Shown here: in pieces, positions 9,554 to 64,000 of the stretch | Numbering within the stretch: position 1 is the stretch's first letter | How the letters are laid out: each line of letters starts with the position of its first letter | Assembly: GCA_903944345.1 (NCBI GenBank) | Contig: CAJARJ010000014.1 | Coordinates: 990 to 64,989, forward strand | DNA from: Candidatus Omnitrophota bacterium | GTDB taxonomy: Bacteria > Omnitrophota > Gorgyraeia > Zapsychrales > Fredricksoniimonadaceae | Length of the DNA: 64,000 nucleotides | Direction: 5' to 3' | Notes under the pieces: model-generated | What the model saw: the letters and a program-made list of their open reading frames with translations, nothing else | Told to the model about the DNA's origin: nothing | Database searches by the model: none | Made by a program: the position numbers and the translations under genes

Positions 9554-10100
9554 CGGCCATCACCTCCTCTTTGATCCCCAGCAGTTTCTCGCGTCCGCGC
9601 TTGAGCCTCGAACGCACAACATTAATATTCACATTCAACGCCGCAGCAATCTGCTCATAAGTCAGACCTTCGATAGCGCGCAGGATCATGCAAACCCGCT
9701 GCTCGGGTGAAAGCGCGTCCAGCAATCGCCGGATCAGTCCTTCCTTATATTCTTTCTCTGCCGCCTGCGTTACTTCCGGCAAGGCCGCTCCGCTAAAAGC
9801 ATCATCATATTCAACCGTCCGGAATCTTTCCTTGCCTCTTTTACGGTAATAATTGATAGAAGTATTCACCGTAATCCGGTACAACCAGGTGCTTAAGGAA
9901 GACTCCGCACGAAACTCTTTAAGTCTGCTATGCATGGTCACAAAAACCTCCTGCACAATCTCACCGGCATCCTCACGGTTGCGCAAAATCCGCAAACTGA
10001 TGTTATACAGCTGATCCGCATACGTTCGGTAAATCTCTTCAAACGCTCCCACATCACCAGCCGCCGCCCGCTGAATCACTTCGCTGGATACATCCTTCAT
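9543..10100 (-). CDS. ECF (sigma-70 group 4, RpoE-like) sigma factor
   Basis: Region 2 (TWLYRITVNTSINYYRKR) and region 4 HTH (LTYEQIAAALNVNINVVRSRLKRGREKL). Confidence 0.85.
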   Translation of the reverse strand: MKDVSSEVIQRAAAGDVGAFEEIYRTYADQLYNISLRILRNREDAGEIVQEVFVTMHSRLKEFRAESSLSTWLYRITVNTSINYYRKRGKERFRTVEYDDAFSGAALPEVTQAAEKEYKEGLIRRLLDALSPEQRVCMILRAIEGLTYEQIAAALNVNINVVRSRLKRGREKLLGIKEEVMADEL

Positions 10101-10202
10101 TCAAACTCCTTACACCCAACCGGTTTAGGCTTGCCCGTTGAAAGACACTGGCATGCCTTTCAATTATTTAGACAAATCCTGGCAGAAAAAAGTTACGGTA
10201 AA

Positions 10203-13022
10203 ATGGAAATTTATCCTGCCACTGATACTAGCAAATATCCCCCCCGCCACCCAACACCTTCCTCTATTGTTTTCTCAGCCGGTTTCCGGCTATACTTGCT
10301 TATGTTTCCCGGCACCTTACACACATTAATACGTCTTTTTCTCTGCTTTTGCCTCGTGGCGGTTTACCACCCATTCCCTGCGAGCTCCCAGTCTCAGTCT
10401 GTTGTCATAAAACATGATCCACAAACTTTAAGCGCGGATTTCTATCCTGAACAATTAAAAGCCATAACCGTATCGCTCCAAGATCCGCTGCATTTCGACT
10501 TTTATATCGACTCAAGGAATGAAAATTCTTCTGCCTCCGATGAGCAACGGCGTTACCTAGTCCTTATAAAAGATTTCTTTACCGCACTGACTATTCCTGA
10601 GACAGACATCTGGGTTAATCTTTCCCCTTTGGAACAAAATCGTATTATTGAAGAACGATTTGGTCTGACCGATACAGGAAGAGATCTTCTGGCACAGGAT
10701 TTGCTGCTCAAACAAATCGCCTCTGCCCTGCTTTATCCGGAAGACGCCTCCGGCCGCCATTTCTGGGATGAAGTCTACCGCAGAATATGGGAAGAATACG
10801 GAACAACCGATATTCCTGTTGATATTTTTAACCGGGTCTGGATCGTTCCTGAGCAGGCTGAAGTCTATCAGGAAGGCTCCTCGGCCATAATCCTTGAAGG
10901 ACATATGAAAGTCATGCTTGAAAAAGACTATCTGGCCTCGGATCTGTCTGCCGGAATTCGTTCCCATATGCCCCGTGCGCCCGATGAAAACAGCCAGACT
11001 ATCCCTGCAGAGGCTCTGCGTGAAATCATCATTCCTCTTCTGGAGAAAGAAGTCAATGAAGGCAAGACTTTCTTCCGTCTGCGGCAAATTTACCAGGCGC
11101 TGATCCTTTCCACCTGGTACAAAAAAACAATGCGCGAATCCTTTCTTGGTAAAACCTATGCTGACCGTTCCAAAACCGGAGGTATCCGGCAAACCGATCC
11201 GGAAGACAACCAGCGCATTTACAACCGCTATGTTGAAACATACCGCAAGGGGGCCTTTAACTTCATCCGTGAAGAAATTGACAGAAACAGCGGAGAACCA
11301 ATACAACGAAAATACTTTTCCGGCGGTTTTAGTGCTGAAAATTTTTCCCAAAAAGTCATTATCCGAAAGGAGTCAGATTTCGACGCCTCCCAGCCCCCCA
11401 AGCCTGGCCCGACCAAGCGAATAAAGAAAGTCTCGACTTCACTAAGACCATCTTCTGCCGATAATCCTTATCCATTTGATGAGGAAGTCCAAAGACTATC
11501 CAACACACTAAGAAACTTGCACCAACAAATTAAAAACGAGGATCTTGTAGCCAGTGCACAAGTTCTGGGCCCCGACCAGACAACTCTCAACGCTGTTCTG
11601 ACCCAGATCAAACAGAACGCCTCTAACGCGATAGACATTGTATTATCAAATGAGGAACAAAAAAACCTGGTCATGAGTGAATTAGCCGAAAAAATAGTTA
11701 ACGGTGAGAAAACAACCCTGCAATCCCTGCTTTTTGATGGCACTCATACAACAGAAGTTCTCCGGCATCTTCTGGCGGTTACCATGCTCGCCCGCCAGGA
11801 TGCTCCCGTGCCTACCGAAGAAATTCTAAAACTCATGGGGTTACGTGCCGGATCAGTCGCAGCAACCGCTGGTGTCATTGAAAATTCTCAGGATATCTAC
11901 GAACTGGAAGATCTCGAAAACGGATTATTCGGTCTTCTTAAAACAAGACCTTCGGGGCTTAAAGAACCCGGTATCGACCACACCGCCACCCTCCATCGTT
12001 TGCGAGCAGAAGAAGGTGTTTTCCGGTCTCATTTCGATCGCCCGACCCAGAGGCCGCCCTATTTCAAAAAAATCATCCAGGATGCCCAGCGACTGCTACC
12101 GCGTGCCCAGAAAATCGTCGACGTACTGACACATTTCGCGCGCGCTGTAGATCTGCGCGTAAAAACCGGATCGAGCGCCAGCAGAAAATCCAACCTCAAG
12201 CCTCTGATGGAAATATCTGACTTTATCGGAGGACGCGCCATTTACAAAGACCTCAGCGACATGGAAACACAGATTCAGCGGCTGCTTAACAGAACCTCCA
12301 ATGACAAAGTCGATATTCTGGATGAGTGGATAGATCGCGTTAAAGAAGAACAAGATGCTCTGGAGAAAAGATTAAGCCGGTTTAAAAAGACCTCTGCCCA
12401 ATACCAGGCACTCCAGCAGGAACTGGCAGATCACAATAACAGAAGACGCAACCTGATGAACTCAAAACCGCTTATGATCGAGTTTGATAACAAGTTCATG
12501 AGCAACCGCGACTCCTACTACAGAGCCATGCAGTTTCTTTTCGCGGTGGGAACCGGAACATGGACTTTTGAACTGCAAATGAAGACATTGCCAGCGGCAA
12601 TAACACAGGACATGGAACACACATTTTACAAAAACAAAAAGAAAAACTCTCCACTACTGTCCGCGATCAGACGACACAACCGCTTGGTCAATATCATTGA
12701 ACTCATCAACTACCTTTACAGCCGTCAGGATATCAACCCAAACTGGATTCTTTTTGAAATCAACAAACACCTGCCGCCACAAGGCGAAAAAACTTCCTCC
12801 GTCGACCCGGCAGCGGTTAGCGTAGCCAGTCCCACCGGAGGTATCGATGCCCGGCATATTGAAAACAAGGTGTTTCTCAGCGGTAGCAACGATATGCCAG
12901 CGCTAATTCAGGAGTTTCAGAATACAGACTATCCGGACGGCTTTGAAGCGGAAATCCTTTCCATCCACCCGGCGGATGATCTTTCATCCGTTTTTCCTGC
13001 ACAATATCCACTCGCCAAATGA
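10203..13022 (+). CDS. Large exported hypothetical protein with a C-terminal RelA/SpoT (RSH) synthetase-like motif set (alternative start 10302)
   Basis: The ORF-track start at 9930 would overlap the sigma gene on the opposite strand, so I took ATG 10203 or 10302. Signal-peptide-like MFPGTLHTLIRLFLCFCLVAVYHPFPASS. C-terminal motifs: LRVKTGSSASRK (RxKxxxSxxxK), DFIGGR (DxxGxR), ELQMKTL (ExQxRT-like) and MEHTFYK (EHxxY). Confidence 0.6.
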   Translation: MEIYPATDTSKYPPRHPTPSSIVFSAGFRLYLLMFPGTLHTLIRLFLCFCLVAVYHPFPASSQSQSVVIKHDPQTLSADFYPEQLKAITVSLQDPLHFDFYIDSRNENSSASDEQRRYLVLIKDFFTALTIPETDIWVNLSPLEQNRIIEERFGLTDTGRDLLAQDLLLKQIASALLYPEDASGRHFWDEVYRRIWEEYGTTDIPVDIFNRVWIVPEQAEVYQEGSSAIILEGHMKVMLEKDYLASDLSAGIRSHMPRAPDENSQTIPAEALREIIIPLLEKEVNEGKTFFRLRQIYQALILSTWYKKTMRESFLGKTYADRSKTGGIRQTDPEDNQRIYNRYVETYRKGAFNFIREEIDRNSGEPIQRKYFSGGFSAENFSQKVIIRKESDFDASQPPKPGPTKRIKKVSTSLRPSSADNPYPFDEEVQRLSNTLRNLHQQIKNEDLVASAQVLGPDQTTLNAVLTQIKQNASNAIDIVLSNEEQKNLVMSELAEKIVNGEKTTLQSLLFDGTHTTEVLRHLLAVTMLARQDAPVPTEEILKLMGLRAGSVAATAGVIENSQDIYELEDLENGLFGLLKTRPSGLKEPGIDHTATLHRLRAEEGVFRSHFDRPTQRPPYFKKIIQDAQRLLPRAQKIVDVLTHFARAVDLRVKTGSSASRKSNLKPLMEISDFIGGRAIYKDLSDMETQIQRLLNRTSNDKVDILDEWIDRVKEEQDALEKRLSRFKKTSAQYQALQQELADHNNRRRNLMNSKPLMIEFDNKFMSNRDSYYRAMQFLFAVGTGTWTFELQMKTLPAAITQDMEHTFYKNKKKNSPLLSAIRRHNRLVNIIELINYLYSRQDINPNWILFEINKHLPPQGEKTSSVDPAAVSVASPTGGIDARHIENKVFLSGSNDMPALIQEFQNTDYPDGFEAEILSIHPADDLSSVFPAQYPLAK

Positions 13023-53898: not shown

Positions 53899-56194
53899 TC
53901 TTCACGGTCCCTTCCGGTTGCGTCCCGTCGACCGGTTGCGCATGCTCTGCCAGCCACTGCTCCCGGTCAATCATAATTGATCGCGACTTACTGCCTGCGT
54001 TAGGGCCAACCAGCCCTGCGCGCTCCATCTGATCAATAATCCGTCCAGCCCTCGAGAAGCCAAGACCAAGCCGGCGCTGCAGCATTGATGCCGAAGCCTG
54101 ACCGGTCTCCATCACCACCCTGACCGCTTCGTCAAAAATTTCATCCTTATCGTCTGCCGAGCCTCCGGCAACCGCGACCGGACGCGCCGTCACGGTATCA
54201 TCATATTTGGGTTTCTCCTGCTGTTTGATGAAATCGACCACCCGGTGAATTTCATCATCCGAAAGATAGCTGCATTGACCGCGGGTAGGCTTGGGATCCC
54301 CGGGGCGTAAAAACAACATGTCGCCGCGCCCTAAAAGATCGTCCGCGCCCTTCTCATCCAGAATGGTACGGGAATCTACCAACGCATTGACGCGAAACGC
54401 TATTCTCGCCGGAAGATTGGCTTTGATAACACCCGTAATCACATTAACCGATGGACGCTGTGTCGCCAGAATAAGATGTATGCCGACTGCGCGGGCCAAC
54501 TGGGCCAACCGGACAACCGCACTTTCAATCACCTTCCCGGATGTCTGCATAAGATCGGCGAACTCGTCGATCACCACCACAATATAGGGCATTTCAAAAC
54601 CCTTGGCATGATAAGCGGCAATATTTCGAACCTGGTTCTTGGCCAGCAACTTGTACCGGGACTCCATTTCGGAAACAACCCAACCAAGCGCCGCAACCAC
54701 TTTTTTATGATCCGTGATAGCCGGACACAACATATGCGGCAGATCGTTATACTGGTTTAATTCCACCATTTTAGGATCAACCATAATGAATTTAACTTCA
54801 TTGGGAGTCGCGTTAAAAAGAATCGACATGATAATCGCGTTAAGACATACCGACTTGCCCGAACCGGTAGACCCTGCCACCAGCAAATGCGGCATTGCTG
54901 CCAGGTCAGCCAGCATCGGTTTTCCGGAAATATCCTTGCCCAAAGCCAGCGTCAATTTGGACTTGCTGCGAATATCCCCGTTTTGTAAAACATCCTTGAG
55001 TACCACCGAAGCAGAGGATCCGTTAGGGACTTCAATCCCCACACGATTCTTTCCCGGGATCGGAGCCTGTATCCGAACCGAATGCGCCTGCATGGCCAGC
55101 GCGATATCATTGGAAAGAGCATTAATGCTCTGCACCCTGACGCCGGGAGCTGGCTCAATTTCATAACGGGTGATCACCGGGCCGCGCTCGATATCGGCCA
55201 CACGAGCAGCGACCCCGAAACTCAGCAGGGTTTGTTCCAGAGTTTTCGCTCCGGAAACAAGCAAACCCTGAACATTTTCCTGTGTGGCTTTCGGAGGATC
55301 CTGCAACAAATCGAAGGAAGGCAAACGATAAGCCCCCGCCACCAGAGGCTTGTCTTCCCGGTCTTTGGGCTGCACTACAACTTTTGGCTGCAATATACGA
55401 ATATTGGGAACTGCCGCAACCGGCTTGACCGGCACAACCGCAGGAGCATCCGTCTTACGATTATTCTTGCCCGCGGGCCCTTCCTGCCGGGAAGGCTTGC
55501 CTTTATCTTTTATCTCCGCCGCATCCTGGGCGTCATCCTCGACTTCATCTTCATCCCAGGCATTGTCCCTGGCTTTCTTTCTTGCAGGAGCGGCCTCCTT
55601 GCGAAACGATAGCATTAACGCCGACAACCATTCCCGGAATTTCTGCTCCCGCAAACCACGAGCCAACTCGATAAAACCCCGAGTCAGACGGACAAGAAGA
55701 GGAGAAACCAGAAAGTCCCCGGCTATCACCAGGCAAAGACAAGTCAGCGTCAAAGAAATAATATAGGCCCCGGCCATCCCGAAATAATTGACCAGAGCAT
55801 CAGCAAACAATAATCCCCCCAGACCCCCTCTCTGAAAACGGTCAGCTGTAACCGCAGAGCCGCTCAGACTAAAAAGACCGCTGATCACCACAAGCAGTAC
55901 AATCAAACTGCTCAATCGCCCAAAAGTAAACAACATCTGTCTTGAGGTAAAAATATTCCAGCTCCAGAAGAAAAGAAAGACCACCAGCAGGTAGGAACTA
56001 TACCCCAGAACAGAAAAAAGAATCCCGGCGCCATAAGCTCCGGCATGACTAATAAAGTTTTTAACCGGAATATTGGGATGCGTAGTAAACCAGACCAGAT
56101 CTTCCGGCACATAGGAAACAAGACTGGCTAGAATAATCAGCGCGAATGAAAGTAGAAGAATCCCTTTAATCTCATTGAGATGTTCAGGTCGCAT
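53891..56194 (-). CDS. ftsK: DNA translocase FtsK/SpoIIIE
   Basis: Four to five N-terminal TM helices, a linker, a motor with Walker A GSTGSGKSV, and a C-terminal gamma winged-helix domain. Confidence 0.9.
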   Translation of the reverse strand: MRPEHLNEIKGILLLSFALIILASLVSYVPEDLVWFTTHPNIPVKNFISHAGAYGAGILFSVLGYSSYLLVVFLFFWSWNIFTSRQMLFTFGRLSSLIVLLVVISGLFSLSGSAVTADRFQRGGLGGLLFADALVNYFGMAGAYIISLTLTCLCLVIAGDFLVSPLLVRLTRGFIELARGLREQKFREWLSALMLSFRKEAAPARKKARDNAWDEDEVEDDAQDAAEIKDKGKPSRQEGPAGKNNRKTDAPAVVPVKPVAAVPNIRILQPKVVVQPKDREDKPLVAGAYRLPSFDLLQDPPKATQENVQGLLVSGAKTLEQTLLSFGVAARVADIERGPVITRYEIEPAPGVRVQSINALSNDIALAMQAHSVRIQAPIPGKNRVGIEVPNGSSASVVLKDVLQNGDIRSKSKLTLALGKDISGKPMLADLAAMPHLLVAGSTGSGKSVCLNAIIMSILFNATPNEVKFIMVDPKMVELNQYNDLPHMLCPAITDHKKVVAALGWVVSEMESRYKLLAKNQVRNIAAYHAKGFEMPYIVVVIDEFADLMQTSGKVIESAVVRLAQLARAVGIHLILATQRPSVNVITGVIKANLPARIAFRVNALVDSRTILDEKGADDLLGRGDMLFLRPGDPKPTRGQCSYLSDDEIHRVVDFIKQQEKPKYDDTVTARPVAVAGGSADDKDEIFDEAVRVVMETGQASASMLQRRLGLGFSRAGRIIDQMERAGLVGPNAGSKSRSIMIDREQWLAEHAQPVDGTQPEGTVKNA

Positions 56195-56236
56195 AACAGA
56201 TGGGGATGCTGTTTTTGGGAAAGGCCTGTCCGGTCT

Positions 56237-56273
56237 AAAAAAATCCCGGCATGAAGCAAACCTTCATGCCGGG
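56237..56273 (-). terminator. Rho-independent terminator downstream of pnp (12-bp stem CCCGGCATGAAG plus U7)
   Basis: Minus strand reads CCCGGCATGAAGGTTTGCTTCATGCCGGGATTTTTTT. Confidence 0.7.
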
Positions 56274-56280
56274 ATAAATA

Positions 56281-58407
56281 CTACGAATTCTTTTCAGCGG
56301 CCGCGATGGCTTTCTTGCGGCTCAGATTATAACGACCTTTCTCATCGACTTCGACAAGAACGACCTGAAATTCGTCTCCGACTTTAATAATTTCGTTCGG
56401 ATCCTTGACATATTTAACCGCCAGCTCGGAAACATGAACCAAACCTTCCTTGCCGGGCATAAACTCACAAAAAGCTCCAAAATTCATGATACGCACAACA
56501 CGGGCATCATAAATCGTTCCAACTTCCGGCTCCTGCAACATCGAAGAAAGGAACTTCATGACTTTATCCAGTGCAGCCTGATCCGGAGCGGAAACAAGAG
56601 CCTTACCGTCATCGTCAATATCAATCGCCGAAGCTCCGGTCGTTTCGATAATCATACGAATTGTCTTGCCGCCAGGACCAATAACTTCCCCGATCCTGTC
56701 CTGGGGAATCTGGATGCTGGCAATACGCGGTGCATAAGCCGACGTTTGGGGACGCGCAGCCGGAATTGTCCGGTTCATCAACGCCAAAATCTGCTCACGC
56801 CCTTCTCTGGCCTGATCAATCGCTTTGCCAAGAAGCTCAAGCGAAATATGACGAATCTTGAGATCCAGCTGAATAGCCGTAATCCCTGTTGTTGTTCCAG
56901 CCACCTTGAAATCCATATCCCCAAAGTGATCTTCCAACCCCTGAATGTCTGTTATCAGAACCGCCCGTTTAGCATCGGAAATAAGTCCGACTGAAATACC
57001 AGCGACCGGAGCCTTGATCGGAACACCCGCATCCATAAGAGCCAGCGAACCGGCACATACAGTTGCCATACTGGACGAGCCATTGGACTCAAGAATTTCA
57101 GATACAACCCTGATTGTATAAGGAAACACTTCCTGATCCGGAACAACAGCTTCAAGAGCACGATGAGCCAAAGCACCATGCCCTATCTCGCGCCGGCCGG
57201 GGCCGCGCATCGGCTTGGTTTCTCCGACAGAAAATGACGGAAAATTATAATGCAACATAAATTTACGGTAACTTGTACCGGTAATAGACTCCATTAACTG
57301 CTCATCAACCTTGGTGCCCAAAGTAATAATAGCCAGACTTTGAGTCTGCCCGCGGGTAAAAAGACCAGTTCCATGAGTTCTGGGCAACAAACCGACCTCA
57401 GCTGCCAGGGAACGAACATCTTTAAGACCTCGCCCGTCAGCTCTCAATCCACGTTCAAAAATATTCTTTCGCATAACATCATACTGCATCAGCTCAAAAA
57501 CACTCCTGACGTCATTTTCGCAGACTTCATATTCGGCAGTATTAAATTCGGCGTAAATCGCAAGATCCGCCGTCAGGGAAGCATAAAGTTCATTGGTTTT
57601 ATTCTCGCGATCTTTTTTGTCCGCGATCCCCTCGAGAATCTGCTCAAGCCTGGACATACCCAAAGCCCGAACCTTGGCAGAAAACGCCGCAGGCAAAGTT
57701 CTGGTCTTAATAACCTGCTTTTCCTTGCCAGCCTGCTTGCGCAGTTCATTCTGAATTTCACGGGAAGCCTGAAAAGAACTGTGGGCAAAGGCCAACATTT
57801 CCTTGATTTTGGCATCCGGAACTTGTTTGCCCTCTCCCTCGATCATAACAATACCATCAGCATCACCGGCTACAATATAATCCAGTTCGCTAAGACTTCT
57901 TTGCTCATATGAAGGATTGGCAATAAAATTTCCATCGACCAGAGAAACCCGTACCGCGCTGATCGGCGCTTCAAAAGGAATGTCAGAAACCATCAGGGCA
58001 GCCGAAGCTCCAATGATGGAAAGAATATCCGGATCAACAGTATCGTCAGCAGAAAGAACCGTGGCCACAATCTGGACTTCGTTTAACAGCCCCTCGGGAA
58101 ACAAGGGACGAATCGGCCGGTCAATAAGACGGGAGGTCAGGACTTCCTTTTCGGTCGGCTTGCCTTCCCGCTTGAAAAATCCGCCAGGGATACGTCCGCT
58201 GGCATACGTTTTTTCCTGATACTCAACGGTAAGAGGAAAGAAATCTATTCCCGCTCTCGGCTGCTTGGCAATACAGGCAGTCACCAGAACAATTGTCCCT
58301 TGACAGGAAACAACAACCGCACCGTTAGCCTGTTTTGCATATTTGCCCGTCTCAATAACAAGAGTATGGGCGCCGTACGGAACTTCTACACGTGCAATAG
58401 CCATCAA
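56281..58407 (-). CDS. pnp: Polyribonucleotide nucleotidyltransferase (PNPase)
   Basis: Two RNase PH domains, then KH and S1 domains (...GRYNLS). Confidence 0.95.
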   Translation of the reverse strand: MMAIARVEVPYGAHTLVIETGKYAKQANGAVVVSCQGTIVLVTACIAKQPRAGIDFFPLTVEYQEKTYASGRIPGGFFKREGKPTEKEVLTSRLIDRPIRPLFPEGLLNEVQIVATVLSADDTVDPDILSIIGASAALMVSDIPFEAPISAVRVSLVDGNFIANPSYEQRSLSELDYIVAGDADGIVMIEGEGKQVPDAKIKEMLAFAHSSFQASREIQNELRKQAGKEKQVIKTRTLPAAFSAKVRALGMSRLEQILEGIADKKDRENKTNELYASLTADLAIYAEFNTAEYEVCENDVRSVFELMQYDVMRKNIFERGLRADGRGLKDVRSLAAEVGLLPRTHGTGLFTRGQTQSLAIITLGTKVDEQLMESITGTSYRKFMLHYNFPSFSVGETKPMRGPGRREIGHGALAHRALEAVVPDQEVFPYTIRVVSEILESNGSSSMATVCAGSLALMDAGVPIKAPVAGISVGLISDAKRAVLITDIQGLEDHFGDMDFKVAGTTTGITAIQLDLKIRHISLELLGKAIDQAREGREQILALMNRTIPAARPQTSAYAPRIASIQIPQDRIGEVIGPGGKTIRMIIETTGASAIDIDDDGKALVSAPDQAALDKVMKFLSSMLQEPEVGTIYDARVVRIMNFGAFCEFMPGKEGLVHVSELAVKYVKDPNEIIKVGDEFQVVLVEVDEKGRYNLSRKKAIAAAEKNS

Positions 58408-58417
58408 TCACATCCCT

Positions 58418-58687
58418 TTATTTGCGTAAGCCCAGCTTGTTAATGGTCTCTTCGTACTTAACAGCATCTGTCTTTTTAAGATACGAAAGCAAGCGGCGGC
58501 GGCGACCGATCATCAGCAAAAGACCACGACGCGAATGGTAATCTTTTTTGTGGGTCTTGAAATGCTCGTTCAGATGATTGATCTTTTCCGTAATAAGCGC
58601 AGCCTGGACAGACGCCGAACCTGTATCTTTGGCATGCAGCTTGAAATCACGGACAACTTGTGTCTTTTTTTCCTTAACGGGACTCAA
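58418..58687 (-). CDS. rpsO: 30S ribosomal protein S15 (TTG start, ribosome-binding site AGGAGGAG)
   Basis: ...[52 protein letters not shown]... Confidence 0.9.
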
Positions 58688-58765
58688 CGGTACTCCTCCT
58701 GATAACAAATATTAATTTTTTCTTTTTCCGATTGGCGGCCATTATACATATAGGGCCGAAGATAG

Positions 58766-59734
58766 TCAAGGACTGTTCTTGACCACCAGAGACTCTCTTT
58801 CAACCGGCTGAAATTCGTCGCTGCCAAAATGTTCAGGATACTCCCGCCATGGCCCCTCGCAAATATGATCGTGAATACAACGGCGGCACTGGGGGAATTT
58901 CATTTTCGCTTCATTCTTTCGAACAATTTCGAACTGCTCAATCCGCCACCCCTTATCCCAAAGATCAACGGGAGGAATGTACAGCTCGGAAACGGAATCT
59001 TCATATCCTTGCAAAAGACAGAAGGGCACTGCCTCCACCATGACCCTGATCCCTTTTTGTTTGCCGATCCTGATCCCTTCCCTGATATACGGGATAGCGT
59101 CCGTCTTCCTGGGCACGATTTCATCAAAAGACGAGCTGGCATGCCCCATGGCATGCACAAAAGCAAACTGCATGACGGACACGCGCAGACTGGCCAGAAG
59201 CTCGGCCAAAGCCGGTAAATGAGGATAATTGATTTTGGTCACCACACTATTGGTGAGAATCGGCACACGCCCACGGGCGATCTTGCGGATATTATGAATC
59301 CCCAAAACGGTCTGACGAAAACTTCCCGGGGCTCTGGTCAGCCGGTCATGAATTTCTGCGGTTGGCCCGTGCAAGGCCGGATTAAAGATCGTCATCCCGG
59401 CCAAAAGAATTTTTTCACAAAATGCCATGGACGAAAACATGCGCCCGTTAGTTTGCAGGTATACCTGCTCAAAACCCATTTTTCTGGCATGCGCCACCAA
59501 CTCAAAGATGTCCTCTCGGACAGAACATTCCCCTCCGGTAAACAAAACCTCCCGGGCACCATCCTTCCAGGAGTCGCCCATCTCCCGCATAATATCTTCT
59601 GTTGACTTGTCACCAAGGGTACGCTTGTCGGCGGCCACACAAAAATGACAGTCATTGATACATTTAAAACCGACAACAATCACAGCCCGCTTCTTGCGGC
59701 AACCGCAATGCTGCAAATTCTTTTTTACGGGCAT
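58766..59734 (-). CDS. Radical SAM enzyme with C-terminal SPASM/twitch-like auxiliary Cys cluster
   Basis: CINDCHFC (CxxxCxxC), a Gly-rich SAM motif VLFTGGEC, and C-terminal ...FCLL... QCRRCIHDHICEGPW. Confidence 0.75.
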   Translation of the reverse strand: MPVKKNLQHCGCRKKRAVIVVGFKCINDCHFCVAADKRTLGDKSTEDIMREMGDSWKDGAREVLFTGGECSVREDIFELVAHARKMGFEQVYLQTNGRMFSSMAFCEKILLAGMTIFNPALHGPTAEIHDRLTRAPGSFRQTVLGIHNIRKIARGRVPILTNSVVTKINYPHLPALAELLASLRVSVMQFAFVHAMGHASSSFDEIVPRKTDAIPYIREGIRIGKQKGIRVMVEAVPFCLLQGYEDSVSELYIPPVDLWDKGWRIEQFEIVRKNEAKMKFPQCRRCIHDHICEGPWREYPEHFGSDEFQPVERESLVVKNSP

Positions 59735-59751
59735 GGTACCTTCTTTCTCCC

Positions 59752-60297
59752 CTACTCCCCTTGTAAAAGAGGATCCGGCTCCATCTGCAGCTGGTTGCTG
59801 TTCTGAGTCTTGCGGGTCAATTCAAGAACCTTGACATTACCACCTTCGGCCAGAATCAGCAAAGGAGCCGATGTCTTGCTTGCCTCGGCGGCAAGGCCTG
59901 CGTTCATCTCCTGGATCGATGCCACTTTGCGGACAGGCTTACCGCCAGACGTCCGTGCTTCGAAAGAATCGATCCCGGCGACAAAACGCTCCACAAACTC
60001 GGCCGGCGGCTCAGCGCTTTTTTGATCAACAACTACCGTGCGCCAGCCATTCTCGTCAATAAACGGTTTTTCCGGGCTGGCCGCGGTCAACGGCTGATCA
60101 GACAGAACAACAGGCTTCAAATTTTCCTTTCGCCTGGCACGAAGATATTCTTCGACAGAGGCATATTTCTTTCCGGTAGCAAAAATTTCAATCTCCTGCT
60201 CCGGAAGCTGTTGCGCAAGGGATGCCGAACAGACAATAACCAGAACGGAAACGAAAAAAGAAATAAAGAAACTAACTGTTTGCGAAATCGATTGCAT
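59752..60297 (-). CDS. Hypothetical exported / membrane-anchored protein (181 aa)
   Basis: N-terminal hydrophobic anchor FFISFFVSVLVIVCSASLA, then a hydrophilic domain. Confidence 0.4.
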   Translation of the reverse strand: MQSISQTVSFFISFFVSVLVIVCSASLAQQLPEQEIEIFATGKKYASVEEYLRARRKENLKPVVLSDQPLTAASPEKPFIDENGWRTVVVDQKSAEPPAEFVERFVAGIDSFEARTSGGKPVRKVASIQEMNAGLAAEASKTSAPLLILAEGGNVKVLELTRKTQNSNQLQMEPDPLLQGE

Positions 60298-60327
60298 AGA
60301 AATAATGAAAAATACCCCAAAGAGCCT

Positions 60328-60528
60328 TCAGTTGAGATCACCTGCGGTCTGCTGCCTGATCATCCCGGCCGGACTAGCTGCTACATCATTAACCAGTCGA
60401 TGAAAAACCCCGTTCTGCGCCGCAAAATAAATGACGACTACAATAACCGCAGCAACAAGTATGATGTATTCCAACATCTGCTGGCCACAACGATTTGACC
60501 GGGAAAAATAAGAAAATTTTATGCACAT
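60328..60528 (-). CDS. Flp/Fap-type pilin-like small peptide (class III leader G/XXXXEY)
   Basis: MCIKFSYFSRSNRCG/QQMLEYIILVAAVIVVVIYFAAQNG...: a Gly, four residues, then EY and a hydrophobic helix. No tad genes adjacent. Confidence 0.4.
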   Translation of the reverse strand: MCIKFSYFSRSNRCGQQMLEYIILVAAVIVVVIYFAAQNGVFHRLVNDVAASPAGMIRQQTAGDLN

Positions 60529-60634
60529 AAAATCCTTATCTGCCTTAACCTACCAGTCCATCATCAGAAAAAGGACTGTAGTCCGGCTTTTACAACAAAT
60601 ATAACACGGTCAGAACCGAAACTCCAGCAAACAG

Positions 60635-62965
60635 TTAGCGGTTCTCCACAGCATTGAACAGACGATCATAGACTTTACGCAAATAATATTCCGTCCTGGG
60701 TCTGTAGTCCCGGTTCACCGGAAGTTTCCCGAACTTCTCCCGGATATAAGCCTGATCGCCAACAAGATTGCCCGCCGAATCCCCCTCCTGAATCTGCTCA
60801 AAACGCCGTATCTCGTTCTGGACATCATCCGGATACATCGCTAAAAGACTTTCTTTAAGCGTCACATCCAAACGCAGCGGAGAAACCGAAGCCAGACAAA
60901 AACTGCCATACAAACGGACAAATGGAAAAACCTCATGCAGGGTTCTGGGAATAATCTGGTACTCATTTGACCAGATCAATAAAACCCCTTCCGGAGCCAG
61001 ATGCTGCCTGATCAATTCAAAGAACTCTGCCGAATGCAAATTGTTGCTATACACTGTCGTGGCATGCAAAGGATCCATTAATACCAGATCATATCGCTCT
61101 TTACTGCCCAGTAAAAAGCGGCGGGCATCATCTATAACCAGCTTTAATCTGGGATTGGTCAGCATCTCGCGAAAGAAATCAATCTTGGTAATATTTTTCA
61201 TCAACGTACGATTGATCTCGACTAAAGTGATATTCCTCACCGACGGCATGTCGAGCAAAACCTCCGGTGTGGTTCCTGTGCCGTAACCGATCACCAGAAC
61301 TTTTTCCTGCTGACGGGTATGACTGACGGCCTCGATAGTTTTATGATAAAAATGCAGAGCCGGACGCCAGCCATGACCTACCCCGTCAATAAAGTTAATC
61401 AGCCTCCAGGCCGAACCCTGCGCGTAAACAACTCCCTCCACACCTTCTTCGAAAAACTCCTCTTCCTGGCGAATGTCTCCGGTGATCATGCTGGTGCCCA
61501 CCCGGAACACTTGCCTGTAAAGATCTCCACGTGCAGGAAAAAACAGAAACATACAAAACAGGACTCCCGCAATCAACGCCCCTTTGGGCATCAGCCCCAG
61601 GCGCAAGGATCGAGGCAACAAAGACCACCCGCCAAGAAGCATCCCTGCCGCAATAAAAAGCGCAAGCGTACGCTCTGTTCCCAGAAAAGGTAAGAAAACA
61701 AAGCCGGTCACAATTCCACCCAGCACGTTCCCGAGAATATTAAAAAAATACACCCTGGCCACAACACTGGCCTCGTGACCCGGTTTCCCGGAACAGAGAA
61801 AGGCTATAAGAGGAAAACTGGCTCCGATAAAAAGAGCGGGAACGAAAATAAAATACATCGGCCAAAGAATAAAATCTCCGACATAAAAACCATTAACCAG
61901 TGTTCTGGACAGCCAGGATAAAGAAGAAGTGTCCAGCGGCAGCAAGTCCAAAGGCGGATGCAGATTGGAGGTAAAAGATATCTCCGTAAGAATTCTCAAA
62001 GGTGTCTGCAGTGTTAAATAAAAAACAAAAACACTGGCCCAGACACTTAACGCAACTGCCGCCTGAATACCAAAAAAAAGGTGCCGACGATTAAGCGCGG
62101 GCCGCTTGTCCAGATAAAACTTCATCCCGTAACTGCCCAGAGCGATCCCGGCCAGATAAACTCCCAGCGAAGAAGAAAAATTATACGCCGAAGCTTTGGT
62201 TAAAATACTCATCAGCCGAAACCAGATAATTTCATAACCTATCGCCAGAAAACCGGAGACAAAAACCAGGAACAAGCCCGCTCGCCCCAGAAACTCCTCC
62301 GCACCCGGAATGTTATGCCCGGAAACATCAGGGGGCTGCTCTTGCCGTGCGGCCTGGGGCCTGGCGGAAAGTGCAGCAATCATGAGGGCCAGAACACAAT
62401 TTATTGCAGCCGCAATATAAACCGCCCGATCCAGGCCAAACAATGTGATAAAAACAAAACTTGCCGTCAGACAGCCGGCCGCAGCTCCTATGGTATTAAT
62501 AAAATAAAGATAACTGATCACATGAATAAAATCGCGCCTGATCCCGGTAAAAATCTTGATCAAGACCGGGAGAGTGATCCCCATCAACATGGTAGGTACA
62601 CACAAGAAAAGAAAAATGACCAGAAAAGACAGCCAGGTACCGGCGCCTGCCGTCTGGGCGGCCAATAACTGCAAAAAAGGCAAGCTGATAACACCGAAAA
62701 GACCAATCGCCAGCTCAATATAGAAATAAAAACGAATTCTGTTACTGAACTTCTCGGCACACAAACCGCCGATCAACGCTCCAGCGCCCAGGCCGAGCAT
62801 ATAAACACTGACAATGATAGTCGTGGAAACAGAACCTACCCCCCAATACAGCGTTAGCAGCCGCTGCCAGGCCACCTGGTAGACCAAAGACGCGAATCCC
62901 GAAAAGAAAAACACCAGCAGCAGAACATTTCTTTCCATGATCACCTCGGAAATATTGGAACGCAA
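60635..62965 (-). CDS. Fused polytopic membrane / spermidine-synthase-like (PABS) protein
   Basis: N-terminal FFFSGFASLVYQVAWQRLLTLYWG with about 13 TM helices, then a C-terminal aminopropyltransferase-like domain VLVIGYGTGTT... LVLMDP. Confidence 0.7.
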   Translation of the reverse strand: MRSNISEVIMERNVLLLVFFFSGFASLVYQVAWQRLLTLYWGVGSVSTTIIVSVYMLGLGAGALIGGLCAEKFSNRIRFYFYIELAIGLFGVISLPFLQLLAAQTAGAGTWLSFLVIFLFLCVPTMLMGITLPVLIKIFTGIRRDFIHVISYLYFINTIGAAAGCLTASFVFITLFGLDRAVYIAAAINCVLALMIAALSARPQAARQEQPPDVSGHNIPGAEEFLGRAGLFLVFVSGFLAIGYEIIWFRLMSILTKASAYNFSSSLGVYLAGIALGSYGMKFYLDKRPALNRRHLFFGIQAAVALSVWASVFVFYLTLQTPLRILTEISFTSNLHPPLDLLPLDTSSLSWLSRTLVNGFYVGDFILWPMYFIFVPALFIGASFPLIAFLCSGKPGHEASVVARVYFFNILGNVLGGIVTGFVFLPFLGTERTLALFIAAGMLLGGWSLLPRSLRLGLMPKGALIAGVLFCMFLFFPARGDLYRQVFRVGTSMITGDIRQEEEFFEEGVEGVVYAQGSAWRLINFIDGVGHGWRPALHFYHKTIEAVSHTRQQEKVLVIGYGTGTTPEVLLDMPSVRNITLVEINRTLMKNITKIDFFREMLTNPRLKLVIDDARRFLLGSKERYDLVLMDPLHATTVYSNNLHSAEFFELIRQHLAPEGVLLIWSNEYQIIPRTLHEVFPFVRLYGSFCLASVSPLRLDVTLKESLLAMYPDDVQNEIRRFEQIQEGDSAGNLVGDQAYIREKFGKLPVNRDYRPRTEYYLRKVYDRLFNAVENR

Positions 62966-62999
62966 ATAAAGCAGAACAGAATCAAACCCGAATGGCTGG

Positions 63000-63323
63000 C
63001 TAAAGAACGATGCGCTCGGACAAGGCAGATATGAAGGGTAATAAGACCTGCCGGCCTTTAAGAGCCATCAGCATGCCCCAAAAGGCCAACAAAAAACATG
63101 CAAACCAAAGCGGACGGGCAAGCCAGGGAATCAGAATTGTTAAAAGAAGCACCGCAACTTCACAAAGAAAAAGCGCCAGCCCCTGACGTGCGTGAGACTG
63201 GACAAATTGATCATCTTTACGATAAATCAGGGGAATTACGCAGAGAAAAAAAATGTACGAGAGAAAAGCGTAAACACGATTCTCATCTATCTTCTGAAAA
63301 AAAGGCACCGCAGACTTAGGCAT
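63000..63323 (-). CDS. DUF4870-family small membrane protein
   Basis: ...AFLSYIFFLCVIPLIY... ...HARQGLALFLCEV... Confidence 0.55.
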   Translation of the reverse strand: MPKSAVPFFQKIDENRVYAFLSYIFFLCVIPLIYRKDDQFVQSHARQGLALFLCEVAVLLLTILIPWLARPLWFACFLLAFWGMLMALKGRQVLLPFISALSERIVL

Positions 63324-64000
63324 TCAGTCCGACCTCAATCAGGGAATTCATATCACCAAAACCGTTGCTGACACGACGCTCATTGGCGGGATCCGATACC
63401 CAGCGGCCATCAACAACAAACTGGTACTGATATGATCCCGGCGGCAGAGACATGCGCAAAGACCATTTACCATCGGCCCCCTTCTCCATACGACACTCAT
63501 CATTGAGCGACCAGTCATTGAAAGATCCGGACAAATAAACCGACTGGGCTTCCGGAGCGACCAGTGCGAAAGTGGCCTGGGAAAGAACCTCCATCTCGCG
63601 GGAAACGATTTGCTGCATCTTCGGCGAAAACTCGGCAGACGAAGACTCCTGACGGGTGCGGCCTTCTTCGATGGCGATCAACTCCTTGGCCAGGCTGAGA
63701 TAATCCTTGGAACCACGGCAGTACTTGTCATAATGAATAACGGGCTTGCCGTCAACCGCAGCTTCCTTGAGCTTGACATTGACATGCACAATAGTTCCCA
63801 GAAGCATTTCGCCAAACTGGGAACGAATCTGATCGAGCATCACAAAAGAATGACGCAAACGGGAATCAAACATGGTCACCAGAACACGGGCCACCACCGG
63901 ATGATTCAGCCGGTCACGGATAAGCCGGACAATGTCCATCAAATGATCCACCCCCTGAACCGAAAAACGGCTCATTTCGACGGGAATCATAACCTCGTGA
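63316..64000 (-). CDS. ParA/Soj-family ATPase (5' part beyond window end) fused to a C-terminal AMPK-beta-type glycogen-binding domain (CBM48)
   Basis: The window-edge translation ...HEVMIPVEMSRFSVQGVDHLMDIVRLIRDRL... VLVTMFDSR... ...GKPVIHYDKYCRGSKDYLSLAKEL is a ParA C-terminal half. The tail VYLSGSFNDWSL... LPPGSYQYQFVVDGRWVSDP matches the AMPK-beta glycogen-binding domain. Confidence 0.75.
   Translation of the reverse strand, partial: HEVMIPVEMSRFSVQGVDHLMDIVRLIRDRLNHPVVARVLVTMFDSRLRHSFVMLDQIRSQFGEMLLGTIVHVNVKLKEAAVDGKPVIHYDKYCRGSKDYLSLAKELIAIEEGRTRQESSSAEFSPKMQQIVSREMEVLSQATFALVAPEAQSVYLSGSFNDWSLNDECRMEKGADGKWSLRMSLPPGSYQYQFVVDGRWVSDPANERRVSNGFGDMNSLIEVGLNA

What the first reader, a model, noticed from the sequence alone, without database searches (positions are those of the whole stretch)
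58766..60528. Radical-SAM/SPASM enzyme in series with an exported 181-aa protein and an orphan Flp-type pilin-like peptide
Three codirectional minus-strand genes lie just upstream of rpsO-pnp. The first is a 66-aa peptide whose leader ends in the class-III prepilin motif G/XXXXEY (CG/QQMLEY) followed by a hydrophobic helix. The second is a 181-aa membrane-anchored protein. The third is a 322-aa radical SAM enzyme with CxxxCxxC and a C-terminal CxxCx5C auxiliary cluster. No tad/cpa pilus-assembly genes or prepilin peptidase are present. The arrangement of small leader-bearing peptide, partner protein and rSAM-SPASM enzyme is the layout of RiPP precursor/maturase loci. The peptide is therefore either an orphan Flp pilin or the substrate of a post-translational modification.
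Basis: partly seen in the sequence, partly recalled or inferred. Interest (0 to 1): 0.55.

Follow-up and report, generated by a model that had tools for sequence, protein, structure and literature searches.

The report
Displaced HxsC-like radical SAM gene
A well-conserved radical-SAM enzyme, which in related bacteria is part of a His-Xaa-Ser (HXS) protein-maturation cassette, sits here without its usual partners next to a small pilin-like protein and a lipoprotein; the three-gene "peptide-maturase" look is probably a recent juxtaposition, not a conserved system.

Summary
All three minus-strand ORFs are real and under purifying selection. The 322-aa enzyme is not a housekeeping radical SAM and not a canonical SPASM enzyme. 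It belongs to a deeply conserved clade (45-62% identity across Omnitrophota, DPANN archaea, Patescibacteria and Myxococcota). Its best curated matches are HxsC4 and HxsC, both below cutoff. In nearly all other Omnitrophota it lies in a variant His-Xaa-Ser cassette: HxsD, HxsD-like, this rSAM, HxsB, HxsA3, often with an A24 prepilin-type peptidase. HXS was shown in 2026 to be an antiphage system in which HxsC-HxsD modify HxsA. The 64-kb window holds no HxsA, HxsB, HxsD, A24 peptidase or tad genes. The 66-aa class-III-signal (Flp-like) protein and the 181-aa probable lipoprotein form a tiny lineage-specific pair. In a more distant Omnitrophota genome the pair occupies the same site next to rpsO-pnp-ftsK, and no rSAM lies there. 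None of 80 other rSAM loci has a Flp-like ORF nearby. Best reading: an HxsC-type maturase gene displaced from its cassette and now co-transcribed with an unrelated pilin-like/lipoprotein pair. A new enzyme-substrate pairing is not excluded (about 0.15-0.2).

The parts
58766..59734 (-). 322-aa radical SAM enzyme of an HxsC-like clade. It has C25x3C29x2C32 plus four invariant Cys (C239, C283, C286, C292) for a probable single auxiliary Fe-S cluster.
   Evidence: ORF. Pfam Radical_SAM only, 61.1 bits. NCBIfam HxsC4 166.3 bits (cutoff 500) and HxsC 95.6 bits (cutoff 267.9). Invariant residues. dN/dS 0.05-0.07. AF2 pLDDT 91.7. Foldseek best matches are BlsE, GDGT-MAS, SkfB, DesII and SuiB. It nests inside Hxs-linked Omnitrophota rSAMs.
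59752..60297 (-). 181-aa exported protein, probably a lipoprotein: N-terminal hydrophobic segment ending in invariant Cys23. Conserved motifs are IEIFATGKKYxSVEEY and APLLILAEGGxVKVLEL. Function unknown.
   Evidence: ORF. No Pfam or NCBIfam hit. Only 3 true homologues among 1.84 billion representatives. Invariant Cys23. dN/dS 0.43-0.58. AF2 pLDDT 43.6, unusable.
60328..60528 (-). 66-aa Flp-like / class-III-signal small protein: variable 15-aa basic leader ending in G, then QQMLEY plus a hydrophobic helix, then a strongly conserved 51-aa 'mature' part.
   Evidence: ORF. Pfam Class_IIIsignal 20.4 bits, E 4.8e-4, below GA 23.7; homologues score 14.6-22.2 bits. Only 5 clusters among 5.8 billion proteins. 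Mature part pN 0.017-0.034 against pS 0.36-0.56.
58741..58769 (-). Sigma-70-like promoter match (TTGACT-17-TATAAT, 11 of 12) overlapping the rSAM stop codon and upstream of rpsO. It marks the downstream boundary of the three-gene transcription unit.
   Evidence: This is a consensus match only. Promoter-like counts in the region are no higher than in shuffles (2 against 2.4).
56281..58687 (-). rpsO and pnp, the conserved housekeeping anchor of the site (rpsO-pnp-ftsK-rodZ-miaB-like).
   Evidence: ORFs. Pfam of the equivalent genes in L001, L088 and L090. RodZ and the MiaB-like gene in the window.
60635..62965 (-). 776-aa fused MFS/spermidine-synthase membrane protein directly upstream. It is present in the window clade and absent from this site in L090.
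   Evidence: NCBIfam NF037959 111.7 bits (cutoff 40) and Pfam Spermine_synth. Synteny.

Best explanation
The 322-aa gene encodes a functional cytoplasmic radical-SAM enzyme of an HxsC-like clade.

Inferred from the superfamily: it binds a [4Fe-4S] cluster through C25/C29/C32 and cleaves SAM to a 5'-deoxyadenosyl radical. With one auxiliary cluster on C239/C283/C286/C292, it abstracts a hydrogen from a protein or peptide substrate.

In its Omnitrophota relatives the orthologue occupies the HxsC position of a variant His-Xaa-Ser cassette (HxsD, HxsD-like, rSAM, HxsB, HxsA3). By analogy with the E. coli HXS antiphage system, it would there modify the His/Ser-rich exported effector together with the small adaptor HxsD.

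In the lineage of this window the gene has been separated from that cassette. It now lies between a lineage-specific gene pair and rpsO, and is most likely transcribed by read-through from that pair (17-nt gap). The pair is a Flp-like class-III-signal protein plus a probable lipoprotein. It is an independent unit: the small protein is probably membrane-inserted and trimmed after Gly15 by an A24 peptidase encoded elsewhere, and the 181-aa protein is exported.

The RiPP-like three-gene layout is therefore a secondary juxtaposition. The enzyme's substrate here is not identified. It could be an HxsA-like protein encoded outside the window.
For: The enzyme is intact and constrained. All family-invariant and near-invariant residues are kept and dN/dS is 0.05-0.07.

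Family identity:
- The best curated matches are HxsC4 (E 1e-48) and HxsC (E 2.3e-27).
- Canonical plasmid-borne hxsC genes align over about 89% of its length at 21-24% identity.

Context in relatives:
- In L011 the flanking genes score as HxsB (388.3 bits, above cutoff 370), HxsD (39.5 bits), HxsD-like (23 bits) and HxsA3 (46.7 bits).
- PF27806:HxsD is precomputed for the gene two genes upstream of the rSAM in L091-L093.
- 20 of 40 fully flanked loci have at least one Hxs partner within 8 kb.
- In an NJ tree the window clade nests within an Omnitrophota clade in which all but one other member is Hxs-linked.

The window lacks the partners: no HxsA, HxsB, HxsD, HxsD-like or A24 homologue and no HxS-repeat ORF in 64 kb.

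Independence of the pair:
- L090 has ParA-CBM / MamF / 65-aa Flp-like / 203-aa homologue / rpsO / pnp / ftsK with no rSAM there.
- No homologue of either protein and no Flp-like ORF occurs in the other 80 rSAM loci.
- The peptide has no HxS motif and none of the conserved HxsA3 N-terminal leader.

HXS function: HxsC-HxsD complex, +8 Da on an SHRSS motif, maturation in the cytoplasm before export (PMC13128918).

Against: - Only 64 kb of the genome could be read, so 'partners elsewhere' is untested.
- The three genes are tightly packed (30-nt and 17-nt gaps). The order is kept in all three sampled lineages of the clade at dS of about 1, as expected for a functional operon.
- The rSAM stays under strong purifying selection without HxsD or HxsB nearby.
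- The polarity of the L090 difference is not resolved: rSAM gained in the window clade, or lost from L090.
- L090 may carry the rSAM elsewhere.
- The rSAM scores below the curated cutoffs of both HxsC models.
- Half of the family's fully flanked loci show no Hxs partner, so 'HxsC-like' is a family-level inference.
Confidence: 0.55

Rival explanations
1. Substrate switch. The displaced HxsC-like enzyme has been recruited to modify the adjacent 66-aa Flp-like protein (or the 181-aa lipoprotein) in the cytoplasm before export. The triad would then be a new small maturation system, a radical-SAM-modified pilin-like protein.
For: - Co-directional genes with 30-nt and 17-nt gaps and no separate promoter match for the rSAM.
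- The arrangement is kept in all members of the clade.
- The rSAM is strongly constrained despite missing partners, and the mature part of the peptide is nearly invariant.
- The usual substrates of the family (HxsA3) are also small exported proteins with a basic N-terminus plus a hydrophobic segment. A24 prepilin-type peptidases occur in 26 of 80 loci of the family.
- HxsA is modified before export (PMC13128918).
Against: - The pair persists with no rSAM at this site in L090.
- No other locus of the family has a Flp-like ORF.
- There is no HxsD adaptor, and HxsC works as an HxsC-HxsD complex in E. coli.
- The peptide lacks HxS motifs and the HxsA3 leader. Its only His is not conserved in L090.
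- The 181-aa protein has no His at all.
- The leader is the variable part and the core is the conserved part, which is the opposite of the usual RiPP pattern (own knowledge).
Confidence: 0.18
2. The enzyme has a substrate that is not a ribosomal peptide, such as a sugar, lipid or cofactor intermediate. Its frequent Hxs neighbourhood would reflect only one of several uses of a versatile, horizontally mobile enzyme. Here it would be a stand-alone metabolic gene that happens to sit beside rpsO.
For: - Unusually high conservation (45-62% identity) across Bacteria and Archaea.
- It stands alone, with no conserved neighbour, in Myxococcota.
- 20 of 40 fully flanked loci have no Hxs partner.
- The nearest solved structures are the small-molecule or lipid enzymes BlsE, GDGT-MAS and DesII.
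- The closest plasmid relative lies among nucleotidyltransferase, DUF6365, MtnK and MetK genes.
- DPANN loci hold glycosyltransferases and many other rSAMs.
Against: - The best curated family matches are HxsC4 and HxsC over the full length.
- In Omnitrophota the gene is embedded between HxsD-like and HxsB.
- SkfB and SuiB (peptide maturases) are equally close structurally.
- The C. perfringens cluster also encodes an NHLP-type precursor.
Confidence: 0.15
3. The 66-aa ORF is simply an orphan Flp/Tad major pilin serving a tad locus elsewhere, and the 181-aa protein is a pilus accessory lipoprotein. The rSAM is irrelevant to them.
For: - G/XXXXEY motif plus a hydrophobic helix, and a length of 66 aa.
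- Consistent though sub-threshold Class_IIIsignal hits in all five variants, and a weak Flp_Fap hit in one.
- Tad systems are widespread in Omnitrophota (PMC10066038).
- The pair is conserved with no adjacent rSAM in L090.
Against: - Scores are below Pfam gathering thresholds.
- L090 has Ala, not Gly, at position -1.
- No tad genes or A24 peptidase lie within 64 kb.
- The family is tiny (5 clusters), which is unusual for a major pilin.
- The role of the 181-aa protein is unsupported by any domain hit.

This reading is compatible with the best explanation and largely contained in it.
Confidence: 0.4

Closest known systems
HXS (His-Xaa-Ser) antiphage system: HxsA/HxsB/HxsC/HxsD of E. coli and other Pseudomonadota (Li et al., Nat Commun 2026, PMC13128918); NCBIfam TIGR03976-03979
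   Same: The rSAM's best curated matches are HxsC-type models. Its Omnitrophota orthologues sit between HxsD-like and HxsB genes, next to an HxS-rich small protein. The expected chemistry is radical-SAM modification of an exported protein before export.
   Different: The score is far below the HxsC cutoff (95.6 against 267.9). Identity to canonical hxsC is only 21-24%. The gene order in relatives is D, D-like, C-like, B, A, not D-B-C-A. The window has no HxsA, HxsB or HxsD at all. The published distribution is 99.7% Pseudomonadota.
NCBIfam NF038332 'radical SAM protein HxsC4', with the HxsA3 (NF038309) and HxsD-like (NF038315) variant-cassette models
   Same: It is the top hit for the window protein (E 1e-48) and, over the full length, for the L011 orthologue (E 2.8e-51, model positions 9-335 of 335). 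The cassettes in relatives contain HxsA3-like and HxsD-like proteins.
   Different: Scores of 166-175 bits against a cutoff of 500, so this is a sister clade and not HxsC4 itself. The partner proteins also score below their cutoffs.
Flp/Fap (type IVb, Tad) pilins and archaeal class III signal peptides (Pfam PF04964, PF04021)
   Same: A short basic leader ending in Gly, Glu at +5 followed by Tyr, then a hydrophobic helix of about 17 residues, in a protein of about 66 aa.
   Different: It is below the gathering thresholds. No tad genes or A24 peptidase lie in 64 kb. The family is confined to five sequence clusters. It is always paired with a unique lipoprotein rather than with tad genes.
Twitch/SPASM-group radical SAM enzymes with solved structures: BlsE (7VOB), SkfB (6EFN), GDGT-MAS (7TOL), SuiB (5V1Q)
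   Same: Same core fold. Foldseek E values range from 4.8e-14 to 4.1e-10 and TM about 0.56-0.65 normalised to the query. A C-terminal Cys-rich extension suits one auxiliary cluster.
   Different: Identity is only 14-23%. The 7-Cys SPASM signature is absent. No RRE or leader-binding domain was detected.

Membership tests
HxsC / HxsC4 radical SAM maturase (TIGR03977, NF038332) | Whole-protein score at or above the curated NCBIfam cutoff | tested here: not met
   HxsC4 166.3 bits against 500; HxsC 95.6 bits against 267.9.
HxsC / HxsC4 radical SAM maturase (TIGR03977, NF038332) | Radical SAM CX3CX2C core | tested here: met
   C25/C29/C32 are invariant in 25 sequences. Pfam Radical_SAM 61.1 bits.
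HXS system (cassette level) | Adjacent second radical SAM/SPASM enzyme HxsB | tested here: not met
   phmmer with L011 HxsB finds nothing in the window. HxsB is present in 28 of 80 related loci and in almost all Omnitrophota relatives.
HXS system (cassette level) | Small adaptor HxsD (LLNDYxLRE family) that binds HxsC | tested here: not met
   HMMs of HxsD (C1) and HxsD-like (C6, C17) proteins give no hit at E<=1 in any window ORF.
HXS system (cassette level) | HxsA effector/substrate with His-Xaa-Ser repeats | tested here: not met
   The HxsA3 HMM gives no hit. No ORF in 64 kb has 3 or more clustered HxS motifs. The 66-aa and 181-aa proteins lack HxS.
HXS system (cassette level) | Orthology with rSAMs that occupy the HxsC slot of cassettes | tested here: met
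   In the NJ tree the window clade nests inside Omnitrophota rSAMs flanked by HxsD, HxsB or HxsA3, with 55-62% identity to them.
Radical SAM/SPASM RiPP maturase with adjacent precursor | SPASM domain (7-Cys, two auxiliary clusters; PF13186/TIGR04085) | tested here: not met
   No SPASM hit in Pfam at E<=0.1. Only four invariant C-terminal Cys, and CxxCx5C is not followed by x3C.
Radical SAM/SPASM RiPP maturase with adjacent precursor | Precursor peptide and maturase co-conserved across loci | tested here: not met
   The peptide and the 181-aa protein are absent from 80 other rSAM loci. The pair is present with no rSAM at the site in L090.
Radical SAM/SPASM RiPP maturase with adjacent precursor | RiPP recognition element (PqqD-like) in the enzyme or in a cytoplasmic partner | tested here: not met
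   No PqqD/RRE hit in the three proteins. The 181-aa partner carries an export signal.
Flp/Fap type IVb pilin | G/XXXXEY processing motif followed by a hydrophobic helix in a protein of about 50-80 aa | tested here: met
   CG/QQMLEY plus IILVAAVIVVVIYFAA, 66 aa. It is the only such motif in the window.
Flp/Fap type IVb pilin | Pfam Flp_Fap (PF04964) or Class_IIIsignal (PF04021) at or above the gathering score | tested here: not met
   Class_IIIsignal 20.4 bits against 23.7. Homologues score 14.6-22.2 bits. Flp_Fap scores 13.8 against 32.2 in one variant.
Flp/Fap type IVb pilin | Prepilin peptidase (A24/TadV) and tad/cpa assembly genes in the genome | tested here: inconclusive
   None in the 64-kb window. 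The rest of the genome is not available. Tad systems are common in the phylum (PMC10066038).
Bacterial lipoprotein (181-aa protein) | Signal peptide ending in a lipobox with an invariant Cys | tested here: inconclusive
   Cys23 is invariant in 5 homologues, and the lipobox is good in some (LAAC, IAAC) and poor in others (VIVC, FLVC). No signal-peptide predictor was available.

The most novel reading that the evidence does not exclude
An HxsC-type radical SAM enzyme, freed from HxsA/HxsB/HxsD, has been re-wired to modify a class-III-signal (Flp-like) small protein before its export. This would be a radical-SAM-matured pilin-like protein. More broadly, this rSAM clade may act on prepilin-type substrates: A24 prepilin-type peptidases are embedded in the variant HXS cassettes of Omnitrophota, DPANN archaea and Patescibacteria.
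Probability: 0.15. Interest if true: 0.7.

Novelty: new variant of a known kind. Interest (0 to 1): 0.35.

Why it matters
HXS was described as an antiphage system only in 2026 and was reported as almost exclusive to Pseudomonadota. This finding points to a much wider, sequence-divergent HxsC-like clade in Omnitrophota, DPANN archaea, Patescibacteria and Myxococcota. That clade occurs in variant cassettes, in tandem paralogue arrays, and, as here, as a strongly conserved orphan. If the orphan works without HxsD, HxsB and HxsA, the enzyme has a function beyond the published system. If it acts on the neighbouring Flp-like protein, it would be the first radical-SAM-modified pilin-type protein. As it stands, the window itself shows an ordinary gene relocation, and the three-gene 'RiPP cassette' is not supported as a conserved system.

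Tried and rejected
- Searched for homologues of the 66-aa peptide, alone and as a 4-sequence profile. Only five near-identical or close clusters turned up, all in the same synteny, so no tad-linked relatives were found.
- Ran an exhaustive HMMER search with the 181-aa protein. It gave 3 true homologues; a fourth hit (P0127, 1346 aa, 10 repeats) was judged a low-complexity or Ig-repeat artefact.
- The AF2 model of the 181-aa protein had pLDDT 43.6, so no fold search was run on it.
- PADLOC gave only generic rSAM similarity to pVip.
- Rfam found nothing in 56000-64000.
- Tried to learn whether the L090 genome has the rSAM elsewhere, through cluster accessions and extra look-ups. This was unresolved.
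- Considered that translation might start at Met18 (MLEY...). Rejected as less likely: the upstream ATG, the ORF and the 15-codon length are kept in three diverged sequences, and only the upstream ATG has an AGGA. One ENA gene call does use the short form (P0124).
- Considered HxsA3 as a class III signal protein. Its N-terminus (EEGKISK...) is not a canonical prepilin site, so this stays a lead only.
Full report
**1. Observation**

The three minus-strand ORFs are exactly where stated:
- a 66-aa ORF at 60328-60528;
- a 181-aa ORF at 59752-60297;
- a 322-aa ORF at 58766-59734.

rpsO and pnp follow. A 776-aa fused MFS/spermidine-synthase gene lies upstream. The gaps are 30 nt and 17 nt.

- **rSAM.** It has C25-x3-C29-x2-C32 and C283-x2-C286-x5-C292.
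- **Peptide.** It reads MCIKFSYFSRSNRCG/QQMLEY, followed by an uncharged stretch of 17 residues.
- **181-aa protein.** It begins with a hydrophobic segment ending in Cys23, which is invariant in all five homologues. It is better described as a probable lipoprotein or exported protein than as membrane-anchored.

Comparison with two diverged relatives (dS 0.56-1.3) shows these are real genes:

| Gene | Measure |
|---|---|
| rSAM | dN/dS 0.05-0.07 |
| Peptide, mature part (residues 16-66) | pN 0.017-0.034, pS 0.36-0.56 |
| 181-aa protein | dN/dS 0.43-0.58 |

The peptide's 15-residue leader is highly variable. Its ATG, reading frame and length are nevertheless kept.

No tad/cpa genes, A24 peptidase, T2SS/T4P-type ATPase or further class-III-signal ORF is present in the 64 kb. 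This rests on motif scans, an A24 HMM built from related loci and Pfam scans of 36 window proteins. Those scans show ordinary housekeeping genes:
- MacB/HlyD/OEP efflux, an ECF sigma factor, QueA, FtsA, RibF, LigA and XerC-like;
- the riboflavin operon, CinA, PgsA and PgpA;
- a MiaB-like gene, RodZ, FtsK, PNPase and S15.

**2. What the enzyme is**

Pfam sees only the Radical_SAM core and no SPASM domain. In an alignment of 25 family members, the only invariant Cys besides the SAM-cluster triad are C239, C283, C286 and C292. This suits one auxiliary cluster (twitch-like) rather than a 7-Cys SPASM domain.

A high-confidence AF2 model (pLDDT 91.7) is closest to BlsE, GDGT-MAS, SkfB, DesII and SuiB. 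The sequence search of the PDB agrees. This places the enzyme in the twitch/SPASM group but does not give a substrate.

In NCBIfam the best hits are HxsC4 (166.3 bits, cutoff 500) and HxsC (95.6 bits, cutoff 267.9). It is therefore an HxsC-like protein, not a member of either curated family.

The family is large and unusually conserved. The top 120 database hits share 47-62% identity (one, a near relative, 94%). They come from Omnitrophota, Aenigmarchaeota, Woesearchaeota and Micrarchaeota. A genome scan confirmed 536 loci, including Patescibacteria and Myxococcota.

**3. Context of the family**

I called ORFs in 80 species-level genome loci and clustered the neighbours.

In Omnitrophota the recurrent layout is:
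- one or two secreted 'TITTYYPSPYGVY' proteins;
- a protein of about 137 aa;
- a protein of about 74 aa;
- this rSAM;
- an rSAM of about 470 aa;
- a His/Ser-rich protein of about 95 aa;
- a Cys-rich secreted protein;
- another rSAM, and a membrane protein of about 300 aa.

NCBIfam and Pfam name these for locus L011:

| Protein | Family | Score (bits) | Cutoff (bits) |
|---|---|---|---|
| ~137 aa | HxsD, TIGR03976 | 39.5 | 50 |
| ~74 aa | HxsD-like, NF038315 | 23 | 41 |
| ~470-aa rSAM | HxsB, TIGR03978 | 388.3 | 370 |
| ~95 aa | HxsA3, NF038309 | 46.7 | 65 |
| ~300-aa membrane protein | Peptidase_A24, PF01478 | 43.7 | 26.5 |

Precomputed Pfam also labels the upstream gene PF27806:HxsD in L091-L093.

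Counts across loci:
- 20 of 40 loci with at least 5 kb on both sides have at least one Hxs partner;
- 26 of 80 loci carry the A24 peptidase.

DPANN and Patescibacteria loci carry tandem arrays of 4-6 full-length paralogues of the same rSAM. Myxococcota copies stand alone.

The HXS system was shown in 2026 to be an antiphage system (PMC13128918). HxsC binds HxsD. Both rSAM active sites are needed. HxsA receives a +8 Da modification on an SHRSS motif and N-terminal processing before export. The system was reported as 99.7% Pseudomonadota with gene order D-B-C-A.

**4. The window is different**

HMMs built from every recurrent neighbour family find nothing in the window. These families were HxsD, HxsD-like, HxsA3, the A24 peptidase, and the secreted C4, C7 and C8 proteins. 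phmmer with HxsB also finds nothing. A search for HxS-repeat ORFs finds nothing either.

Yet in an NJ tree the window-clade rSAM (window, L001, L088) nests inside the Omnitrophota clade. All other members of that clade but one are Hxs-linked. The simplest reading is that an HxsC-type gene left its cassette.

**5. The peptide and the 181-aa protein**

Both are confined to a tiny lineage:
- the peptide has five sequence clusters among 5.8 billion proteins, searched alone and as a profile;
- the 181-aa protein has three true homologues among 1.84 billion representatives.

All close relatives keep the order spermidine-synthase fusion / peptide / lipoprotein / rSAM / rpsO / pnp / ftsK.

The most distant homologue of the 181-aa protein (P0128, 28% identity) is informative. 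It lies in Omnitrophica MAG contig JADFWR010000003.1 (L090). The order there is ParA-CBM / MamF-like / 65-aa Flp-like protein (...RSA/QSAIEYILLTTAVIVIVIALVV..., 35% identical to the window peptide) / 203-aa homologue / rpsO / pnp / ftsK / rodZ / miaB-like. No rSAM and no spermidine-synthase fusion lie there.

So the pair is a unit of its own at this site and can exist without an adjacent rSAM. Conversely, none of the 80 other rSAM loci contains a homologue of either protein or any Flp-like ORF.

All five peptide variants hit Pfam Class_IIIsignal just below threshold (14.6-22.2 bits against 23.7). One weakly hits Flp_Fap. [quoted passage not shown]

**6. Mechanism, and what is shown or inferred**

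Shown:
- the enzyme is intact and constrained;
- it is an HxsC-like clade member;
- its usual partners are missing from 64 kb;
- it is packed 17 nt behind the lipoprotein gene;
- a strong promoter-like site for rpsO overlaps its stop codon;
- the pair occurs in L090 with no rSAM at the site.

Inferred:
- reductive SAM cleavage and H-abstraction on a protein substrate, aided by one auxiliary cluster;
- co-transcription with the pair;
- processing of the 66-aa protein after Gly15 by an A24 peptidase encoded elsewhere;
- export and lipidation of the 181-aa protein.

I put 0.55 on 'displaced HxsC-type maturase, secondary juxtaposition, substrate elsewhere or unknown'.

The rivals are:
- a substrate switch to the Flp-like protein or the lipoprotein (0.18). 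It is supported by the tight, clade-wide operon and by strong constraint on an orphan enzyme. It is opposed by L090, by the missing HxsD, by the absence of HxS motifs, and by a variable leader with a conserved core;
- a substrate that is not a ribosomal peptide (0.15). It is supported by cross-domain conservation, the stand-alone Myxococcota copies and the BlsE/GDGT-MAS similarity.

The 'orphan Flp pilin' reading of the small ORF is compatible with the best explanation.

**7. Comparison with known systems, and novelty**

The enzyme probably works like HxsC. It fails the membership tests for HxsC/HxsC4 (scores) and for the HXS cassette (no HxsB, HxsD or HxsA). It is not a SPASM RiPP maturase.

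The small protein looks like a Flp pilin but fails the Pfam thresholds and lacks nearby tad genes.

I file the locus as a new variant of a known kind: an orphaned HxsC-like gene. Interest is modest (0.35).

The more interesting material lies outside the window. It consists of the variant HXS cassettes with A24 peptidases and the rSAM paralogue arrays, found in Omnitrophota, DPANN archaea and Patescibacteria.

Noticed in passing
L011 7323-13792; also L010, L013, L016, L091-L093: Variant His-Xaa-Ser cassettes in Omnitrophota, DPANN archaea and Patescibacteria (HxsD, HxsD-like, HxsC-like, HxsB, HxsA3). They often include a Peptidase_A24 (prepilin-type) membrane protein (26 of 80 loci) and a Cys-rich secreted protein. 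This lies outside the Pseudomonadota-centred distribution reported for HXS.
   Followed up: partly
L030 7995-13794; L058 7995-15911; L048; L085: Tandem arrays of 4-6 full-length paralogues (27-42% identity) of the same ~300-aa HxsC-like rSAM in DPANN and Patescibacteria genomes.
   Followed up: partly
L011 10290-10574 and 16 other HxsA3-like ORFs: HxsA3 N-termini share a conserved 'IKKxIxxFLxxEEGKISK' segment followed by a weakly hydrophobic stretch of about 15 residues. This may be the leader recognised by the maturases or the A24 peptidase. It is not a canonical class III signal.
   Followed up: partly
L014 6319-7266; L009 278-1091; L003 3946-4479: Pairs of secreted proteins with an N-terminal 'TITTYYPSPYGVY' motif lie just upstream of the Omnitrophota cassettes. 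The L003 copy hits Pfam PF26696 PTL_trimer.
   Followed up: no
window 63000-63990 (minus strand): A ParA/CbiA-type ATPase fused to a glycogen-binding AMPK1_CBM/CBM48 module (cut by the window end), followed by a 107-aa MamF_MmsF-like membrane protein. The pair is conserved in L001, L088 and L090.
   Followed up: no
window 60635-62965 (minus strand): A 776-aa fused MFS/spermidine-synthase membrane protein (NF037959 above cutoff). It is present at this site only in the clade that also has the rSAM and is absent from L090, so two genes flanking the peptide/lipoprotein pair differ between the lineages.
   Followed up: partly
window 58741-58769 (minus strand): A near-consensus sigma-70-type promoter match (TTGACT-17-TATAAT) overlaps the rSAM stop codon, upstream of rpsO.
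   Followed up: no
L095 (C. perfringens plasmid NZ_CP075938.1, 16971-27849): The closest plasmid-borne relative of the rSAM (26% identity, E 6e-26) lies in a cluster with an Os1348/NHLP-type precursor, two DUF6365 proteins, a sugar-phosphate nucleotidyltransferase, a second rSAM, MtnK and MetK.
   Followed up: no
L094 1-5921: In another Omnitrophica MAG the rSAM lies 2.4 kb downstream of a secretin and a CbiA/ParA-T2SSE fusion (Tad-like). A PemK toxin pair, a PAC2 gene and an AbpE_bact gene lie between them.
   Followed up: no
window 9930-13022 (+) and 2897-4315 (+): Two long ORFs (1030 aa and 472 aa) have no Pfam hit at E<=1e-4. The 1030-aa ORF overlaps the 5' end of the ECF sigma gene on the opposite strand.
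   Followed up: no
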